A stretch of DNA of 15,505 bases from a virus (IMGVR_UViG_3300028592_000006:64001-79505), one strand, 5' to 3'. Positions 11,103 to 15,394 are shown, numbered from the stretch's first letter. A program made the numbers and translations. The notes: generated by a model from the letters alone, not told the origin.

Positions 11103-13477
11103 CAGTTGATTCCCGACTGCTTGGCAGCGGCGGCCTTGGCGCGAAGCTCGGCTTCCTGTGCCGCAATCTTCGCAATCGACTCCTGCGCGGCCAAAACCAT
11201 CTTGGACTCGGAGGCTGCCCGGCCAGCTTCCAAGCGTGCCAGGTCGGCCTTGATCTGGAATGCCGCCTTCTCGGCATTGATCCGCATGTCCTGCTGGTGT
11301 TTTTCCTCCTTGTGGCGCAACTCTTGTTCGCCCTTGGCGGCTTCCTGCTGGGCCTGCGGGTCCACCTCTCCTTGCTGCCCTTGCTCGCGGGCCAGCTTGT
11401 TGAGGTGCTTCATGCCGTTGACCACCAGCTCGCCGATCTGCTGGACGCGCTGGCGATACGAGTTGAGTTCCGGCACCAGCGTCTCATGCACCGTCGCCAT
11501 CTCGAGTGTGGCAACGCAGTGGCGGTAGATCTGCTGGTTCTCGATGGTCCACTGGCCAAGGTCCAAACGACCCTCATCCACGTCCTTGAGGGCCACTTCC
11601 AGCTCGTCGATGTGCACACCAAGGTGGGTCATGTGGTCCTCTCCGTCGTCCGGATCGACGTAGTCGCCTTCCAGCATCTCGAGGTTCTCCAGCTTGGCGA
11701 TCTTGTGATCCACCGGCAGGCGCTTCTCATCCGGCTTGCCAAGGTAGCGGTTGGCCTTGTCCACCCCGAGCAATTCGACCAGGTAGTCGTAGACGAAGTT
11801 CTTCCGTCCGATGGCATCCATTTCCGAGAACATCTGGGAGACCTGGTCCAGCAGCATGATGCGCGAGGCGCGGGAGCCGGTGCCGATGATGCGGCTGGCC
11901 TTGACCCGCTTCACGTCAATCTTGCCGAAGACTTCCGGAGGAACCCCGCGTGCAATGCAGCGGTCCTTCATCTCCTTGACCCGTTTGGCCGCTTCCTTGT
12001 CCTTCTGTGGCACCTGGAAGGCGCGGCGGACCTTCTCGCGGGTAAGCTTGTCCAGGGGGCCGTAGAACAACGAGATGGCAAAGCTGTTGAGCTTGTTGAT
12101 GTAGTCCAGCTTGCTCGAAATCTCGAGCTTGGTCTGGCGGTCCTTGTCGTCCTGCAACATCATCGAGCCGGAAGCCAGCCCGCCGGTCGCACGGTTGAGG
12201 ATGTTCCGGGATTCATTGATCGCCGGGATGATGGCCCGGTTCAGGTCGATGCCCACCTGCCGCTCCGGCAGCTTCATGGTCGGCGGGATGGCGATGCCGG
12301 CACCGAAATCAATCAAGGTCATGTCTTGCTCGTCCTCGACCGTCGCAGGCTGGACGATCAGCGAGGAGCCCACCCGGGCGTTGTCCAGCAGCTTGCAATG
12401 CATGATGTCCATCGCGTTGCACAACTGGAAGATCAGGTAGCCCAGCCCCCGGACGGTGTAGAGCTTGCCACCGTTGCCCACCGAGAACGGGAAGATTTGG
12501 AACGCCTGGTCCGCCGAGTCGTAGTAGTCGCGCTCGCGGAACAGGAATTCCTCCTTGCTGCTGCCGCGGATGTATTCCTGCTGGCAGGCCCGGCGCAGGG
12601 CGATGTAGTAGCTGATTTTCTTCGAGGAAAGCTCCTGAACCCACACGTGGATCACCTCGATGGGGTCACAGATGTTCTCGACGTAAAGCTCGTTGGCCTT
12701 GATGTCGCGCTGGATCGACTCGTAGTTGTCCCAGTCGGGCTTCTTCTTGGAAGCCGTGTTGGTCATGGCCGACATGATGGCGTTGTCGTTCCATCCCTTG
12801 GCTCCCATCTTGCGGTAGAGCTGCGGCAAGGTGTAGGTGCCCAGCGCGCAGCACAGCTCGATCTTGGAGGAAACAATGCCCGATGAACGGGGGAACTTGA
12901 AGCGGTCCAGCCCGGCCGCATTGTATTGCATCGACTCCTTGTCGTCGAAGTAGCCGATCCCGACCCCGTGGGTGACGTAGATGTCGGCCAGCTCCAGGTG
13001 GGTCGGCATCGAAGCATCGTCCGACCGGTCCATGGTCGTGTATTCCTCGGCCATGATCAGCGACCAGGTCTCAGCCCAGGTAGGGTCCACGTCGCTGGTC
13101 AGCGGGATGTCAGCAAGAACCTTGGGATTGGTGTAGATGTCGACGTAGGCGGCCACCGCCTCATTCTTGATCGCCGGTCCTTCGCCGGTGGTGATGTTGA
13201 AGCGGTCGGACTGGCCCTTGTTCTCCAGCTCCGCGTCATCATGGGGAGGAACGAAGTCCATCAGCCCTTGCACCAGCGCCCGGTTCTTCGAGCCCGGACC
13301 ATCGGCATCCTCGAGGGTCTGGTAGATGGCGCGGGCGGCCTCCGGCGAGGTCAGGCGCTCGTCAGGCACCTCGTAAGAGCCATCGGGTTCAACGCAAACG
13401 CCCTTGAGTTCATCAAGGGCTTGTTCGGAGTCGGAGAATAAGGAGGACATCTCGTTGGTCTTGGCTAATTCAGGCAT
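11102..13477 (-). CDS. Portal protein (P22-like, long C-terminal helical barrel)
   Basis: 791 aa and upstream of scaffold and MCP. It has the DHMTHLGVH motif recalled from P22-like portals and a Q/A/E-rich helical C-terminus. Confidence 0.85.
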   Translation of the reverse strand: MPELAKTNEMSSLFSDSEQALDELKGVCVEPDGSYEVPDERLTSPEAARAIYQTLEDADGPGSKNRALVQGLMDFVPPHDDAELENKGQSDRFNITTGEGPAIKNEAVAAYVDIYTNPKVLADIPLTSDVDPTWAETWSLIMAEEYTTMDRSDDASMPTHLELADIYVTHGVGIGYFDDKESMQYNAAGLDRFKFPRSSGIVSSKIELCCALGTYTLPQLYRKMGAKGWNDNAIMSAMTNTASKKKPDWDNYESIQRDIKANELYVENICDPIEVIHVWVQELSSKKISYYIALRRACQQEYIRGSSKEEFLFRERDYYDSADQAFQIFPFSVGNGGKLYTVRGLGYLIFQLCNAMDIMHCKLLDNARVGSSLIVQPATVEDEQDMTLIDFGAGIAIPPTMKLPERQVGIDLNRAIIPAINESRNILNRATGGLASGSMMLQDDKDRQTKLEISSKLDYINKLNSFAISLFYGPLDKLTREKVRRAFQVPQKDKEAAKRVKEMKDRCIARGVPPEVFGKIDVKRVKASRIIGTGSRASRIMLLDQVSQMFSEMDAIGRKNFVYDYLVELLGVDKANRYLGKPDEKRLPVDHKIAKLENLEMLEGDYVDPDDGEDHMTHLGVHIDELEVALKDVDEGRLDLGQWTIENQQIYRHCVATLEMATVHETLVPELNSYRQRVQQIGELVVNGMKHLNKLAREQGQQGEVDPQAQQEAAKGEQELRHKEEKHQQDMRINAEKAAFQIKADLARLEAGRAASESKMVLAAQESIAKIAAQEAELRAKAAAAKQSGIN

Positions 13478-13616
13478 CGAGAAACTCGCGCCACAGGTAG
13501 CGGCAGATGGCTTGGAAGCGTCCCTGCATGACCACCGAGCCGCGATGGACGAGGGAGTAGGAGCCAGACGAGTGCTTGATCACCCGGGTCTGGTCCTGCT
13601 TCCACACCGTCTTCAT
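13470..13616 (-). CDS. Small hypothetical protein (48 aa)
   Basis: MKTVWKQDQTRVIKHSSGSYSLVHRGSVVMQGRFQAICRYLWREFLDA*. It starts in a TGATG overlap with the upstream stop and overlaps the portal ATG by 8 nt. In the track it is hidden as the tail of spurious ORF 13470..14303. Confidence 0.7.
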   Translation of the reverse strand: MKTVWKQDQTRVIKHSSGSYSLVHRGSVVMQGRFQAICRYLWREFLDA

Positions 13617-14296
13617 CAGACAATCTGGCGAACCAGGGTGAAGGCAGGATTGACGTTGACCACGATGCCGGTCGGATCTGCCACCGTGATCGCCACGTTG
13701 ATCTCCGGGTGGGAGCCGCAGTTGATGCCGGTCTTCTCGCCTGCGGCGGTCAGCGATAGGGCGCTGGTCGAGTATGGCTGGCCGGTAACGGTCTTGGAGG
13801 CAACCCCGGCGGTGGTGTTCGTGCTGGTGGCTGCGGCGGTCACTCCGAGGCCGGCGGGGATGGCCAGGTTGCACTCGGGATCGTTGGCTCGCTTGTGGCC
13901 GTATTCGTCGGCCTTGGCGGTGATGACCACGTCCTCGGTGGAGGTGGTGGCAGTCCAGCTCGCGGCAAACTGCGCGTTGGCATTGAGCGCGTCCTTGATG
14001 GCGGTGGCAATCAGCGCGGCGGTGGTGTGGTCTGCCAGGGTGAGGGCTACCGGGATACTCAAACTCGGGGTCTTCGCCGAGTTGAACACCACGGTGAGGA
14101 TTCCTGCGGAAGTGGCACCCGCGGCGGCAACGACGGTGGCGGTCTCGACCTGGGCGGTGCCAGCGGCAATCACGTCGTTCAGGTATTGCAGCGTCAGGGT
14201 TGAGCCATTGAAGGTCCCGGTGGCCGATAGCGTGTAGGTGGCCCCGATGGGGACCGGGAAGCGGTAGTTGCCCTGCTTGGTGATGGCTTTCTGCAT
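13616..14296 (-). CDS. Beta-rich virion structural protein
   Basis: 226 aa, very A/T/V-rich, with phage structural-protein-like segments (TLSATGTFNGSTLTLQY; AALIATAIKDALNAN). Confidence 0.7.
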   Translation of the reverse strand: MQKAITKQGNYRFPVPIGATYTLSATGTFNGSTLTLQYLNDVIAAGTAQVETATVVAAAGATSAGILTVVFNSAKTPSLSIPVALTLADHTTAALIATAIKDALNANAQFAASWTATTSTEDVVITAKADEYGHKRANDPECNLAIPAGLGVTAAATSTNTTAGVASKTVTGQPYSTSALSLTAAGEKTGINCGSHPEINVAITVADPTGIVVNVNPAFTLVRQIV

Positions 14297-14304
14297 GCCC
14301 CACC

Positions 14305-14338: not shown

Positions 14339-14363
14339 CCTGACCTAGCAACAGGAATGGAAG

Positions 14364-14459
14364 TCTGGACGGTGGGATTCGAACCCACGGAGAACCCACA
14401 CTTAGGGCTCTCACCCGATTCCAAGTCGGGCACCTTTAACCAAGCTCGGTCACGTCCAG
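14364..14459 (-). tRNA. tRNA with UGG (Pro) anticodon and a long class II variable arm (96 nt, no encoded CCA)
   Basis: Acceptor CTGGACG/CGTCCAG with A73; D stem ACC/GGT; anticodon arm CCCGA-CTTGGAA-TCGGG; variable arm GAGAGCCC-TAAGTGT-GGGTTCTC; T arm GTGGG-TTCGAAT-CCCAC. The amino acid charged is uncertain. Confidence 0.85.
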
Positions 14460-14466
14460 ATTGAAG

Positions 14467-14538
14467 CGCCTCCCCAAGGAATCGAACCTCGATTTTCCGG
14501 TTCGTAGCCGGATGTCCTGTCCGTTGGACGAGGAAGGC
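14467..14538 (-). tRNA. trnR: tRNA-Arg(ACG)
   Basis: Acceptor GCCTTCC/GGGAGGC; anticodon arm TCCGG-CTACGAA-CCGGA; T loop TTCGATT; A20 present; no encoded CCA. Confidence 0.92.
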
Positions 14539-14546
14539 TGGAAAGT

Positions 14547-14622
14547 TGGTGATGTCGGCGGGACTTGAACCCTGCATTGCCCGAGTGAAAGTCGGGAGTG
14601 ATGACCTTTACACCACGACATC
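14547..14622 (-). tRNA. trnE: tRNA-Glu(TTC)
   Basis: Acceptor GATGTCG/CGACATC plus ACCA; anticodon arm CCCGA-CTTTCAC-TCGGG; the T stem has a bulged A. Confidence 0.88.
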
Positions 14623-14637
14623 AGCGGAGAAAGGGTT

Positions 14638-14711
14638 TGGCAGTCTCGCAAGGTTTTGAACCTTGGCTGGGTGGATCAAAGCCACCAGTGCTACCATTAC
14701 ACCACGAGACC
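14638..14711 (-). tRNA. trnQ: tRNA-Gln(TTG)
   Basis: Acceptor GGTCTCG/CGAGACT plus GCCA; anticodon arm GGTGG-CTTTGAT-CCACC; T arm CAAGG-TTCAAAA-CCTTG. Confidence 0.92.
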
Positions 14712-14934
14712 AGAAAAAGGCCTCACCGCTGTTGTCGCGGTCGCTCTCGTCGTGGAGCTGGAATGGTGTAGTTCACAGGAAAAGGTGTCGCGACAAGGTG
14801 GTTTAGTTGAGACGTATATTCCAAATGTAGTCCCAGCCGGACATTCGCAACGAGCGGACCATGCACAATCTTGAGATTGTAGGCAAGAGGATTTCCTTGT
14901 CAGAAATAATGGGGTGTTTTTCTGACAGGTTGGT

Positions 14935-15010
14935 TGGCTCACCGGGTAGGGATCGAACCTACGACCTTCGGGGTAACAACCCGTTGCAACTACCTCTGTG
15001 CTACCGGTGA
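14935..15010 (-). tRNA. trnN: tRNA-Asn(GTT)
   Basis: Acceptor TCACCGG/CCGGTGA plus GCCA; anticodon arm ACGGG-TTGTTAC-CCCGA; T arm GTAGG-TTCGATC-CCTAC. Confidence 0.92.
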
Positions 15011-15012
15011 GT

Positions 15013-15089
15013 TGGTGGATCGTGAAGGTCTCGAACCTTCGGCCTGCCGGTTAAAAGCCGGCTGCTCTGACCAACTGAGCTAACGATCC
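15013..15089 (-). tRNA. trnK: tRNA-Lys(TTT)
   Basis: Acceptor GGATCGT/ACGATCC plus ACCA; anticodon arm GCCGG-CTTTTAA-CCGGC; canonical D and T arms. Confidence 0.95.
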
Positions 15090-15098
15090 TTGGAAAGG

Positions 15099-15173
15099 TG
15101 GAGGTCCGGGTCGGACTTGAACCGACAGCCCCTTGATTACGAATCAAACGCACTACCATTGTGCTACCGGACC
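15099..15173 (-). tRNA. trnT: tRNA-Thr(CGT)
   Basis: Acceptor GGTCCGG/CCGGACC plus TCCA; anticodon arm TTTGA-TTCGTAA-TCAAG; T arm GTCGG-TTCAAGT-CCGAC. Confidence 0.92.
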
Positions 15174-15226
15174 ATGAGAACAACGAAGAGGAGAGCCGCG
15201 TAGCGGGCTCGATCAATTTCGTTTCA

Positions 15227-15316
15227 GGCCGGTGGTTGTCAGGAACACGAGGAAAGGAATGACAGGTCCCGGGAAAAAGGCAAGCCCCGACATCCTTGCC
15301 ATTAGACGACCGAGGC
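15227..15316 (-). pseudogene. Degenerate tRNA-like sequence
   Basis: The 5' half GCCTCGG-TC-GTC-TAATGGCAAG-GAT-G is tRNA-like. It is followed by stems TCGGG/CCCGG and TGTCA/TGACA in anticodon-arm and T-arm positions, but with 12- and 18-nt loops and no clean 3' acceptor strand. Confidence 0.4.
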
Positions 15317-15318
15317 AT

Positions 15319-15394
15319 TGGTTGCAGGAGTGGGATTTGAACCCACGACCTAGAGCTTATGAAACTCCCGCGCTAACCGCTGCGCCATCCTGCT
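15319..15394 (-). tRNA. trnM: tRNA-Met(CAT), initiator-like acceptor stem
   Basis: Acceptor AGCAGGA/TCCTGCA (A1.A72 mismatch) plus ACCA; anticodon arm GGAGT-TTCATAA-GCTCT; T arm GTGGG-TTCAAAT-CCCAC. Whether it is fMet, elongator Met or Ile2 is not resolved. Confidence 0.88.

What the first reader, a model, noticed from the sequence alone, without database searches (positions are those of the whole stretch)
14364..14459. Chimeric tRNA: Pro anticodon and acceptor determinants on a Ser-like class II body, with A37
Seen: a 7-nt loop C-U-UGG-A-A, C1:G72 with A73, an AGCUUGG D loop, G13.A22, extra D-loop bases, and a 25-nt variable region with an 8-bp stem directly abutting C48. Established knowledge: bacterial tRNA-Pro is class I, uses G72/A73/G35/G36 as identity elements, and has G37 (m1G37, TrmD) which limits +1 frameshifting. 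Long variable arms belong to Ser, Leu, Tyr and Sec, and SerRS reads the arm, not the anticodon. The loop equals the tRNA-Ser(UGA) loop CU-UGA-AA with A36 changed to G. Inference: it is either a TrmD-independent tRNA-Pro built from a Ser scaffold, possibly evading host tRNA-targeting defences, or a tRNA that inserts Ser at CCA codons. Either would be unusual.
Basis: partly seen in the sequence, partly recalled or inferred. Interest (0 to 1): 0.82.

Follow-up and report, generated by a model that had tools for sequence, protein, structure and literature searches.

The report
Phage proline tRNA with extra arm
This phage carries an intact proline tRNA built on the long-armed body plan that textbooks reserve for serine, leucine and tyrosine tRNAs; it belongs to a conserved, almost purely viral family that I could not find in print, and it most likely still inserts proline rather than miscoding.

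Summary
Window 14364-14459 (minus strand) is a 96-nt tRNA with anticodon UGG, C1:G72, A73, A37, a 3-bp D stem with G13.A22, and a 25-nt variable region forming an 8-bp stem.

It is not a one-off. I collected 51 distinct relatives from uncultured phage contigs and metagenomes:
- 50 have C1:G72 and A73.
- 50 have UGG and one has CGG.
- 47 have A37.
- 43 have a variable region of exactly 25 nt.
- All five helices covary.

In anticodon-blind scans of this scaffold, every tRNA with a proline anticodon had the proline-type acceptor end. Every tRNA with a serine anticodon had G1:C72, nearly always with G73. In this phage, CCA and CCG codons align with proline, not serine, in three related genomes that lack the tRNA.

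My best reading (about 0.72) is a proline tRNA charged by the host ProRS, carrying a serine/tyrosine-type D arm and a serine-style extra arm. Why it keeps the arm and A37 is not shown. Escape from a host activity that recognises tRNA shape, and independence from TrmD, are untested inferences.

Serine insertion is disfavoured but not excluded. The scan has noted this family before on other DNA. No charging or expression data exist.

The parts
14364..14459 (-). Whole gene: 96-nt class II tRNA with anticodon UGG (tRNA position i = window 14460 - i). No CCA is encoded; CTTCC follows A73.
   Evidence: ARAGORN. Rfam RF00005 at 54 bits. Family model R1 at 108.2 bits, third best of all members.
14453..14459 (-). 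Acceptor 5' strand CUGGACG. C1 is at 14459.
   Evidence: Sequence. The 1:72 pair is C:G in 25 of 26 aligned members, while pairs 2-7 vary freely.
14364..14371 (-). Acceptor 3' strand CGUCCAG (14365-14371; G72 at 14365) plus discriminator A73 (14364).
   Evidence: Sequence. A73 is invariant in alignment A1. 50 of 51 distinct members have C1/G72/A73.
14432..14450 (-). D arm: a 3-bp stem ACC/GGU, G13.A22, and an 11-nt loop AGCUUGGUUAA with A14, G15, G18 and G19.
   Evidence: Sequence. All three stem pairs covary, and A14, G15, G18, G19 and the two A before the 3' strand (A21 and A22) are invariant. D-arm identity to the family consensus is 0.65 for tRNA-Ser and 0.68 for tRNA-Tyr, against 0.49 for class I tRNA-Pro.
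14414..14430 (-). Anticodon arm: stem CCCGA/UCGGG and loop CUUGGAA. Anticodon UGG is at 14421-14423 and A37 at 14420.
   Evidence: Sequence. All 5 stem pairs covary, which fixes the 7-nt loop register. C32, U33, U34, G35 and G36 are invariant in A1.
14389..14413 (-). 25-nt variable region: U, an 8-bp stem GAGAGCCC/GGGUUCUC, the loop UAAGUGU, then C48.
   Evidence: Fold. 7 of the 8 stem pairs show compensatory changes across members. The region is 25 nt long in 43 of 51 members, with stems of 7-9 bp.
14372..14388 (-). T arm GUGGG-UUCGAAU-CCCAC (7/5 acceptor/T arrangement).
   Evidence: Sequence. Three T-stem pairs covary and the T loop is invariant, though part of it was fixed by my search patterns.
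14364..15394 (-). The tRNA array holding the gene: Met-CAU, Thr-CGU, Lys-UUU, Asn-GUU, Gln-UUG, Glu-UUC, Arg-ACG, then the long-armed Pro-UGG. This is the only Pro tRNA in the genome.
   Evidence: ARAGORN on the window and on the whole 79.5-kb record. Rfam.
14876..14903 (-). Sigma-70-like promoter match (CTGACA, 16 nt, TACAAT; 10 of 12) in the 223-nt gap upstream of the Gln-Glu-Arg-Pro half of the array. No terminator-like site lies between the tRNA and the next gene (13616-14296, minus strand).
   Evidence: Consensus scan only; 0.6 such sites are expected by chance, so this is weak.

Best explanation
This is a functional phage tRNA-Pro(UGG). It is a member of a conserved, phage-borne family in which the recognition elements for bacterial prolyl-tRNA synthetase sit on a class II body. 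Those elements are C1:G72, A73, G35, G36 and the G15:C48 pair. The body has a Ser/Tyr-type D arm and a 25-nt extra arm set in the serine manner.

Proposed working: the tRNA is transcribed with the phage's tRNA array and given CCA by the host. The host ProRS charges it with proline, and it reads CCA and CCG, possibly all CCN. It is the phage's only proline tRNA.

A37 in place of the universal G37 removes the need for TrmD methylation. An A cannot pair with the mRNA C, and that pairing is what m1G37 normally blocks.

The long arm is kept by selection for its shape (length and helix), not its sequence. My preferred but unproven reason is that it makes the phage's Pro tRNA look different from the host's to some host factor that recognises tRNA-Pro, for example a defence nuclease.

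Shown: gene integrity, family conservation, covariation, linkage of anticodon to acceptor identity, and the proline meaning of CCR codons. Inferred: charging by ProRS, TrmD independence, and the purpose of the arm.
For: 1. It is a real tRNA.

2. It belongs to a family. A scan of IMG/VR for the loop CTTGGAA followed by a T arm 20-36 nt downstream gave at least 16 long-armed UGG tRNAs. A scan blind to the anticodon, using only the D-arm motif, the spacing and the T arm, gave 25 viral loci, all with UGG.

3. The same anticodon-blind scan in metagenomes gave 78 hits:
- 40 had a Pro anticodon (39 UGG, 1 CGG), and all 40 had C1, G72 and A73.
- About 33 had Ser anticodons; all had G1:C72, nearly all with G73.
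In 185,579 species genomes the scan gave 22 ordinary tRNA-Ser and one Pro-type tRNA.

4. Covariation on 26 distinct members (RNAalifold gives the same structure):
- 97.3% of cells are paired.
- 25 of 28 pairs changed on both sides.
- 0 of 500 shuffles reached the observed values.
- Sliding the partners by 1-3 columns dropped pairing to 40-45%.
- The 1:72 pair is C:G in 25 of 26, whereas 2:71 is U:A 13, G:C 8, A:U 5.

5. Identity rules are taken from the review PMC9976931. C1:G72 is a strong E. coli ProRS determinant, along with A73, G35, G36 and G15:C48. G1:C72 and G2:C71 are conserved in bacterial tRNA-Ser, with G73 as a determinant. tRNA-Ser genes in the same phage arrays have G1:C72, G2:C71 and G73, and short tRNA-Pro genes there have C1:G72 and A73.

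6. Codon meaning. In 33 proteins of this phage aligned to three complete relatives without the tRNA:
- CCA aligns to Pro 53% and Ser 5.6%.
- CCG aligns to Pro 57.5% and Ser 3.9%.
- CCC and CCT behave alike (Pro 55-61%, Ser about 5%).
- True Ser codons align to Ser 37-49% and Pro 0-4%.

7. CCA plus CCG make up 59% of the 1,116 Pro codons counted in the phage. Serine insertion would therefore hit the phage's own proteins.
Against: - No aminoacylation, expression or modification data exist.
- G37, or m1G37, is itself listed as a contributor to prolylation in E. coli. A37 could therefore weaken charging by ProRS.
- The same review says E. coli SerRS recognises tRNA-Ser mainly by its tertiary shape and long arm. 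A Ser-style arm could allow some serylation despite the wrong acceptor end.
- About 17 of 27 distinct arrays also carry a normal short tRNA-Pro(UGG), which suggests the long-armed one does something different.
- The host is unknown, so which ProRS type is involved is also unknown.
- My search patterns fixed part of the D arm and T loop, so the family picture is limited to that scaffold.
Confidence: 0.72

Rival explanations
1. It is a serine-inserting, or dual Pro/Ser, tRNA. SerRS grips the long serine-style arm and charges it whatever the anticodon, so CCA and CCG are read partly as serine during infection.
For: - The extra arm is set in the serine manner, with one unpaired base on each side of the stem. 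The D arm is of the Ser/Tyr type.
- The family model scores bacterial tRNA-Ser at 65-82 bits.
- SerRS ignores the anticodon and relies mainly on arm and shape (review).
- Engineered tRNA-Ser(UGG) does insert serine at proline codons in yeast (PMC6827378).
- Many arrays keep a normal tRNA-Pro(UGG) beside this one.
Against: - The acceptor elements conserved in tRNA-Ser (G1:C72, G2:C71, G73) and the D-stem pair C11:G24 are all missing or variable.
- The full Pro set is conserved in 50 of 51 members.
- CCA and CCG sit at conserved proline positions and are no more serine-like than CCC and CCT.
- This is the phage's only Pro tRNA, and 59% of its Pro codons are CCA or CCG.
Confidence: 0.1
2. It is not mainly a decoder. 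It is a tRNA-shaped decoy or competitor that binds and occupies a host factor recognising tRNA-Pro, such as a defence nuclease or a modification enzyme.
For: - It often coexists with a normal tRNA-Pro(UGG).
- The same genome holds other tRNA-like non-decoding RNAs, according to earlier notes of this scan.
- The PARIS study raises the possibility that over-expressed viral tRNAs inhibit AriB by competition, and lists tRNA-Pro(UGG) among probable cleavage products (PMC12409363).
Against: - Every element needed for charging and decoding is conserved: a 7-bp acceptor stem, A73, a standard T arm, a 7-nt loop with U33, and the anticodon.
- In this phage it is the sole Pro tRNA, within an otherwise ordinary decoding array.
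- No partner protein was identified.
Confidence: 0.08
3. It is charged with leucine. A73 is the main LeuRS determinant, and the long arm combined with loss of G73 removes the barrier that keeps LeuRS off tRNA-Ser.
For: A73 is invariant. G73 of tRNA-Ser is listed as an antideterminant against LeuRS and TyrRS. A separate Leu-type body with a UGG anticodon does exist in phages (L042).
Against: - The family has the Ser/Pro-type G15:C48 pair, not the A15:U48 of E. coli tRNA-Leu (the latter from my own knowledge of Asahara 1993).
- D-arm identity to tRNA-Leu is only 0.50.
- C1:G72 conservation is unexplained by LeuRS.
- CCR codons are not leucine-like, which I infer from the high Pro conservation.
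Confidence: 0.03
4. It is a sequencing error, a one-off mutant of a tRNA-Ser(UGA), or a decaying pseudogene.
For: The loop differs from a tRNA-Ser(UGA) loop by one base. The record comes from a metagenome assembly.
Against: 51 distinct relatives carry Pro anticodons (50 UGG, one CGG), and 50 of the 51 have the same acceptor end. There is extensive compensatory change and no broken helices in the window's copy.
Confidence: 0.01

Closest known systems
Canonical class I bacterial and phage tRNA-Pro(UGG), for example E. coli proM and the short tRNA-Pro genes in the same phage arrays
   Same: Anticodon UGG, C1:G72, A73, G15:C48, a 7/5 acceptor/T arrangement and presumably the same synthetase. Some phage class I copies share the loop CUUGGAA and align with the family apart from a clean 20-nt gap in the variable region.
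   Different: - A 25-nt variable arm instead of 4-5 nt.
- A 3-bp D stem with G13.A22 and an 11-nt D loop. Katoh 2016 (my own knowledge) described a 4-bp stem with a 9-nt loop as the EF-P recognition element.
- A37 instead of G37 in 47 of 51 members.
Bacterial class II tRNA-Ser, especially those with 23-25-nt variable regions in Armatimonadota and Bacillota
   Same: The D-arm motif CGAG..GGTT.AAG with G13.A22, the extra arm flanked by one unpaired base on each side, G15:C48 and the same T loop. They match the family model at 65-82 bits.
   Different: tRNA-Ser has G1:C72, G2:C71, A3:U70, G73 and Ser anticodons. The family has C1:G72, variable 2:71 and 3:70, A73 and UGG.
Allo-tRNAs (Mukai et al. 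2017, PMC5389517) and nematode nev-tRNAs (Hamashima 2012, from my own knowledge)
   Same: Long-armed tRNAs whose anticodon belongs to an amino acid that normally uses a class I tRNA. Some are found in phages and mobile elements.
   Different: Allo-tRNAs have 8/4 or 9/3 acceptor/T arrangements and Sec-like D arms, and they are charged according to their body (Ser or Ala). The present family is 7/5, and its acceptor end matches its anticodon, not its body.
Engineered tRNA-Ser(UGG) mistranslators (Berg et al. 2019, PMC6827378)
   Same: A serine-type long-armed body with a UGG anticodon.
   Different: The engineered tRNAs keep the serine acceptor end and insert serine. The natural family has replaced the acceptor end with the proline one.
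Phage tRNAs that escape tRNA-targeting defences through sequence changes (van den Berg 2023, PMC10264068; PARIS and T5 tRNA-Lys, PMC11464382 and PMC12409363)
   Same: A phage-encoded replacement tRNA that differs from the host's in and around the anticodon arm. This window's array contains Lys-UUU, Asn-GUU, Thr-CGU and Pro-UGG, four of the six tRNAs listed as AriB targets or probable targets.
   Different: Known cases involve point changes, not a new arm. No defence that targets tRNA-Pro has been shown to be evaded. The window's Thr-CGU keeps the E. coli AriB site motif UAAUCA, so the parallel is only a lead.

Membership tests
tRNA (Rfam RF00005) | Cloverleaf with a 7-bp acceptor stem, D arm with G18 G19, 5-bp anticodon stem with a 7-nt loop and U33, and a T arm with the UUCGAAU-type loop | tested here: met
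   54 bits against a gathering score of 29. ARAGORN. All helices covary in the family.
Bacterial tRNA-Pro (ProRS identity set) | C1:G72 and discriminator A73 | tested here: met
   Present in the window. 50 of 51 distinct family members have them. The rule is from PMC9976931.
Bacterial tRNA-Pro (ProRS identity set) | G35 and G36 in the anticodon | tested here: met
   Anticodon UGG at 14421-14423. G35 and G36 are invariant in A1. Anticodon-blind scans found only UGG or CGG on C1/G72/A73 tRNAs.
Bacterial tRNA-Pro (ProRS identity set) | Levitt pair G15:C48 | tested here: met
   G15 and the base before the T stem (C48) are invariant in A1.
Bacterial tRNA-Pro | G37 (m1G37, the TrmD substrate) | tested here: not met
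   The window has A37. Across the family, 47 have A37 and 4 have G37.
Bacterial tRNA-Pro | Class I architecture (4-5-nt variable loop) | tested here: not met
   The variable region is 25 nt with an 8-bp stem.
Bacterial tRNA-Pro | Aminoacylation with proline | not testable with these tools
   This needs a charging assay.
Bacterial tRNA-Ser | Long variable arm in the serine orientation | tested here: met
   One unpaired base on each side of an 8-bp stem. This is the same layout as the 22 bacterial tRNA-Ser found with the same pattern.
Bacterial tRNA-Ser | G1:C72, G2:C71 and G73 | tested here: not met
   The window has C1:G72, U2:A71 and A73. In the family, 2:71 varies freely. tRNA-Ser genes in the same arrays keep G:C, G:C and G73.
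Bacterial tRNA-Ser | Serine anticodon (NGA or GCU) | tested here: not met
   The anticodon is UGG. The stem register is fixed by five covarying pairs.
Allo-tRNA (Mukai 2017) | 8/4 or 9/3 acceptor/T-stem arrangement with a Sec-like long D stem | tested here: not met
   The arrangement is 7/5 and the D stem is 3 bp. The definition is from PMC5389517.
Bacterial tRNA-Leu | A73 with Leu-type core (A15:U48, Leu-type D loop) | tested here: not met
   A73 is present, but the pair is G15:C48. D-arm identity to phage tRNA-Leu is 0.50, against 0.65-0.68 for Ser and Tyr. The core rule is from my own knowledge.
tRNA-Sec | 13-bp acceptor/T branch (8/5), 6-bp D stem, UCA anticodon | tested here: not met
   The branch is 7/5, the D stem is 3 bp and the anticodon is UGG.

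The most novel reading that the evidence does not exclude
The serine-style arm lets SerRS charge a fraction of this tRNA while ProRS charges the rest. Phages carrying it would then make CCA and CCG codons ambiguous (Pro/Ser) during infection. That would be a virus-imposed, tunable miscoding that harms host proteins or diversifies phage proteins. The conserved proline acceptor end would set the ratio rather than abolish serylation.
Probability: 0.08. Interest if true: 0.9.

Novelty: new variant of a known kind. Interest (0 to 1): 0.68.

Why it matters
Textbooks restrict long variable arms to Leu, Ser, bacterial Tyr and Sec tRNAs. The known exceptions (allo-tRNAs, nematode nev-tRNAs) are charged according to their body. 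Here a class I identity, proline, sits on a class II body, with acceptor and anticodon determinants conserved together in more than 50 distinct phage sequences.

If ProRS does charge it, three things follow:
- A class II synthetase that faces the variable side of the tRNA can tolerate a 25-nt arm.
- The rule 'long arm means Ser, Leu or Tyr' used by annotation tools is not safe for phages.
- A37 offers a natural test of how far tRNA-Pro needs m1G37 for reading-frame maintenance.

If the arm is a counter-measure against a host factor that recognises tRNA shape, that would be a new way of escaping tRNA-directed immunity. The family also gives synthetic biologists a natural scaffold for orthogonal proline tRNAs.

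Tried and rejected
1. Neighbour-gene search with ORF 13470-14303 found nothing. That His-rich ORF is a wrong-frame shadow; the real gene is 13616-14296.

2. A rigid 63-position pattern copied from the window's tRNA gave no hit in IMG/VR.

3. Relatives found through the 791-aa protein mostly lack tRNAs near that gene. Two relatives rated complete have no tRNAs and a third has two. No ortholog of this tRNA was found in the phage's own lineage, so the array is an accessory module.

4. megablast of the array region, and blastn of three family members, against 50,697 GenBank phage records gave no match. No cultured phage with this tRNA was found at that sensitivity; a 96-nt query is weak.

Read-level verification of the anticodon and RNA expression could not be done, and read laying was not used.

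6. A GG dinucleotide occurs in the extra-arm loop of only 29 of 51 members, and not in the window (loop UAAGUGU). Rejected as a conserved feature.

7. PARIS/AriB parallel. The array shares four anticodons with the AriB target list. The window's Lys-UUU and Asn-GUU differ from the E. coli cleavage motif, but its Thr-CGU keeps UAAUCA and the Pro tRNA has AAUC at positions 37-40. This is mixed and I keep it only as a lead.

8. The one cellular hit (an Opitutales MAG contig with an 11-tRNA array). PHROG scans of flanking ORFs were uninformative. Only 1 of 121 genomes of that order had a match. I cannot tell whether this is prophage or chromosome.

9. Literature. Seven full-text searches and five papers read found no description of a long-armed tRNA-Pro. 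The library lacks most subscription journals.

10. Descent from tRNA-Ser versus gain of an arm by a phage tRNA-Pro is unresolved. Pairwise identities to co-resident tRNAs are 0.42-0.68, with Ser highest where Ser is present. Class I tRNA-Pro aligns with a clean 20-nt gap.

11. tRNAscan-SE isotype models were not available.

Full report
**What is there.** The window is the last 15.5 kb of a 79,505-bp IMG/VR virus record (58% G+C) that CheckV rates 100% complete. Genes in the window run on the minus strand. The right end holds eight tRNA genes in an array: Met-CAU, Thr-CGU, Lys-UUU, Asn-GUU, Gln-UUG, Glu-UUC, Arg-ACG, and last the flagged gene.

ARAGORN calls the flagged gene tRNA-Pro(tgg), 97 nt, at 14363-14459. 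Rfam's tRNA model matches 14364-14459 at 54 bits. The single sequence folds into a cloverleaf plus an extra hairpin at -45.6 kcal/mol, z -4.3.

Read off the sequence, the gene has:
- acceptor CUGGACG/CGUCCAG, so C1:G72, with A73 and no encoded CCA;
- a D stem of three pairs with G13.A22 and an 11-nt loop AGCUUGGUUAA;
- anticodon stem CCCGA/UCGGG closing the loop CUUGGAA;
- a 25-nt variable region (U, an 8-bp stem, a 7-nt loop, C48);
- a standard T arm.

**It is a family, not an accident.** The phage's own relatives, found through the 791-aa protein, mostly lack tRNA arrays. Two relatives rated complete have no tRNAs and a third has two. I therefore searched by pattern.

ARAGORN found 21 UGG tRNAs of 87-99 nt among them. 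At least 16 of these share the window's architecture: C1:G72, A73, the D arm CGAG..GGTT.AAG and a 25-nt variable region.

That pattern fixed the anticodon loop, so I ran a second scan that is blind to it: the D-arm motif, 46-50 nt, then the T arm. The results were:

| Collection | Hits | Pro-type | Ser-type |
|---|---|---|---|
| IMG/VR viral contigs | 25 | all 25 have UGG; 24 have C1:G72 and A73 | 0 |
| Metagenome contigs | 78 | 40 (39 UGG, 1 CGG), all with C1, G72, A73 | about 33, all G1:C72, nearly all G73 |
| 185,579 species genomes | 25 | 1 | 22 ordinary tRNA-Ser (the other 2 hits are not tRNAs) |

The single Pro-type tRNA in cellular genomes lies in an 11-tRNA array on a contig of an Opitutales MAG. 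Only 1 of 121 genomes of that order had a match.

Pooled, there are 51 distinct family sequences:
- 50 have C1/G72/A73.
- 50 have UGG and 1 has CGG.
- 47 have A37 and 4 have G37.
- 43 have a variable region of exactly 25 nt, and all have a 7-9-bp stem.

The window's copy scores 108 bits against the family model, the third best of all members.

**Structure is under selection.** On 26 distinct members, 97.3% of cells form standard pairs and 25 of 28 pairs show changes on both sides. None of 500 shuffles reached the observed values, and sliding the partners by 1-3 columns dropped pairing to 40-45%. The extra-arm helix has 8 pairs, 7 of them with compensatory changes. RNAalifold predicts the same structure without being told it. 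The extra arm is conserved in length and pairing, not in sequence: the window's arm shares little sequence with the commonest version.

**Which amino acid.** The review of tRNA identity (PMC9976931) lists the following.
- For E. coli ProRS: C1:G72 (a strong determinant), A73, G35, G36 and the G15:C48 pair, with G37 or m1G37 contributing.
- For SerRS: the long arm and overall shape, conserved G1:C72 and G2:C71, and G73.

The family conserves every Pro element except G37. It has lost every Ser acceptor element. The 1:72 pair is C:G in 25 of 26, while 2:71 is U:A 13, G:C 8, A:U 5, and 11:24 also varies.

In the same phage arrays:
- tRNA-Ser genes have G1:C72, G2:C71 and G73.
- Short tRNA-Pro(UGG) genes have C1:G72 (18 of 19) and A73 (18 of 19).

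The complete linkage between anticodon type and acceptor type on one shared scaffold is what one expects if ProRS reads both ends. It is hard to explain if SerRS were the charging enzyme.

**A direct test of codon meaning.** I aligned 33 proteins of this phage with three complete relatives that lack the tRNA.

| Codon in this phage | Aligns to Pro | Aligns to Ser |
|---|---|---|
| CCA | 53% | 5.6% |
| CCG | 57.5% | 3.9% |
| CCC | 61% | 4.7% |
| CCT | 55% | 4.8% |
| True Ser codons | 0-4% | 37-49% |

CCA and CCG make up 59% of the 1,116 Pro codons counted in the phage, and this is its only Pro tRNA. There is thus no reassignment. Substantial serine insertion would damage the phage's own proteins. 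Low-level ambiguity cannot be excluded by this test.

**What the body resembles.** D-arm identity to the family consensus is 0.65 for tRNA-Ser and 0.68 for tRNA-Tyr. It is 0.50 for tRNA-Leu and 0.49 for class I tRNA-Pro. The arm is flanked by one unpaired base on each side, as in the bacterial tRNA-Ser found with the same pattern. Those tRNA-Ser score 65-82 bits on the family model.

On the other hand, some class I phage tRNA-Pro share the loop CUUGGAA and align with the family apart from a clean 20-nt gap. 'Pro ends on a Ser/Tyr-type core' is therefore a fair description. The direction of evolution is open.

**Why have it.** This part is inference.

A37 is conserved, but it is not unique to the long-armed form: 7 of 19 short phage tRNA-Pro(UGG) in these arrays also have A37. 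A37 cannot form the G37:C pairing that m1G37 exists to block, so the tRNA would not depend on TrmD (established knowledge applied here, not tested).

The arm's constant length suggests a shape requirement. About 17 of 27 distinct arrays carry both a short and a long-armed tRNA-Pro(UGG), and in nine they are immediately adjacent. This argues that the two are not simply redundant.

One lead concerns the PARIS nuclease AriB. It cuts tRNAs at 40/41, at the base of the anticodon stem near the variable region. Its targets or probable targets are Lys-UUU, Thr-UGU, Asn-GUU, Thr-CGU, His-GUG and Pro-UGG (PMC12409363). Four of these anticodons are in this eight-gene array. At the motif level the picture is mixed, because the window's Thr-CGU keeps the E. 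coli site. The host is also unknown, so I treat this as a hypothesis to test and not as support.

**Comparison with what is known.** The closest known molecules are:
- ordinary tRNA-Pro(UGG), with the same identity but a different body;
- bacterial tRNA-Ser, with the same body plan but different ends;
- allo-tRNAs, which are long-armed with odd anticodons but have an 8/4 or 9/3 arrangement and are charged according to their body;
- engineered tRNA-Ser(UGG) mistranslators;
- phage tRNAs that escape nucleases through point changes.

Seven full-text searches found no description of a long-armed tRNA-Pro. Three family members have no blastn match in 50,697 GenBank phage records, which may be why the family has gone unnoticed.

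Earlier notes of this scan record the same family on other DNA and reached the same reading. I re-derived the family, its covariation and the identity linkage independently. I added the anticodon-blind linkage test and the codon-meaning test.

**Limits.**
- My patterns fixed part of the D arm and the T loop, so the counts describe that scaffold only.
- The host is unknown.

**Verdict.** This is a real gene and a member of a conserved phage family. It is most likely a proline tRNA (0.72). The purpose of the arm is unknown.

Noticed in passing
L018:7237-7471 (related phage contig IMGVR_UViG_3300048583_000261); also L121, L141, L070, L158: These phage arrays contain tRNA-Leu genes of class I length (74-78 nt, A73, no long arm): Leu-AAG, Leu-CAG and Leu-UAA in L018, and Leu-UAG, Leu-UAA, Leu-CAA and Leu-CAG elsewhere. 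This is the mirror image of the finding. The L018 Leu-UAA gene has C1:G72 and A73, a proline-type acceptor end.
   Followed up: partly
L146, L141, L140, L145, L155, L142, L104, L121, L054, L097: The same arrays hold many other normally short tRNAs with an extra hairpin of 12-23 nt: Thr-UGU (84-87 nt), Met-CAU (89-94), Asn-GUU (86-89), Gln-UUG (83-88), Glu-UUC (86-92), Val-UAC (84-86), Gly-UCC (87), Lys-CUU (85) and Ile-UAU (90). Adding an arm appears to be a general habit of phage tRNA arrays.
   Followed up: partly
L042:4866-4946 (-): This tRNA has a leucine-type body (acceptor GCCGCCG, D arm GCGGAACUGGUAGACGC, A73, encoded CCA, 15-nt variable region) and a UGG anticodon. It is a different kind of Pro-anticodon class II tRNA that may really be charged according to its body.
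   Followed up: no
L074:8816-8903 (-), L095:7647-7734 (+): A second type of long-armed Pro tRNA: C1:G72, A73 and UGG, with a 16-nt variable region and a different, longer D region. It is not part of the 25-nt family.
   Followed up: no
L215 (metagenome contig OCZT010000067.1): One family member carries CGG instead of UGG (loop CUCGGAA) on the same scaffold, with C1:G72 and A73.
   Followed up: no
class I tRNA-Pro(UGG) genes in family loci: 7 of 19 distinct short phage tRNA-Pro(UGG) genes also have A37 instead of the G37 that cellular tRNA-Pro always has. Loss of the TrmD site is therefore a wider phage trait.
   Followed up: partly
window 14364-15394: The array holds Lys-UUU, Asn-GUU, Thr-CGU and Pro-UGG, four of the six tRNAs reported as targets or probable targets of the PARIS nuclease AriB (PMC12409363). 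Lys-UUU reads UAACCG and Asn-GUU reads UACCCC at positions 36-41, unlike the E. coli cleavage motif. Thr-CGU keeps UAAUCA.
   Followed up: partly
window 14712-14934 and 15174-15318: Two gaps of 223 and 145 nt inside the tRNA array have no Rfam match at E up to 1. The first holds a sigma-70-like promoter match at 14903-14876 on the minus strand. ORF 15001-15318 (105 aa) overlaps tRNA genes and is probably spurious.
   Followed up: partly
G002, G003, G004 (L181-L192): Complete relatives sharing 33 proteins with this phage have very different base composition: 46%, 39% and 56% G+C, against 58% here. They carry 2, 0 and 0 tRNA genes. The lineage spans hosts of different composition, and the eight-tRNA array is a recent accessory.
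   Followed up: no
window 13470-14303 (-) versus 13616-14296 (-): The longest ORF next to the tRNA (277 aa, His-rich) is a wrong-frame shadow. The frame with GC3 of 0.84 (226 aa, starting MQKAITKQ) is the likely real gene. It has no Pfam or PHROG match.
   Followed up: partly
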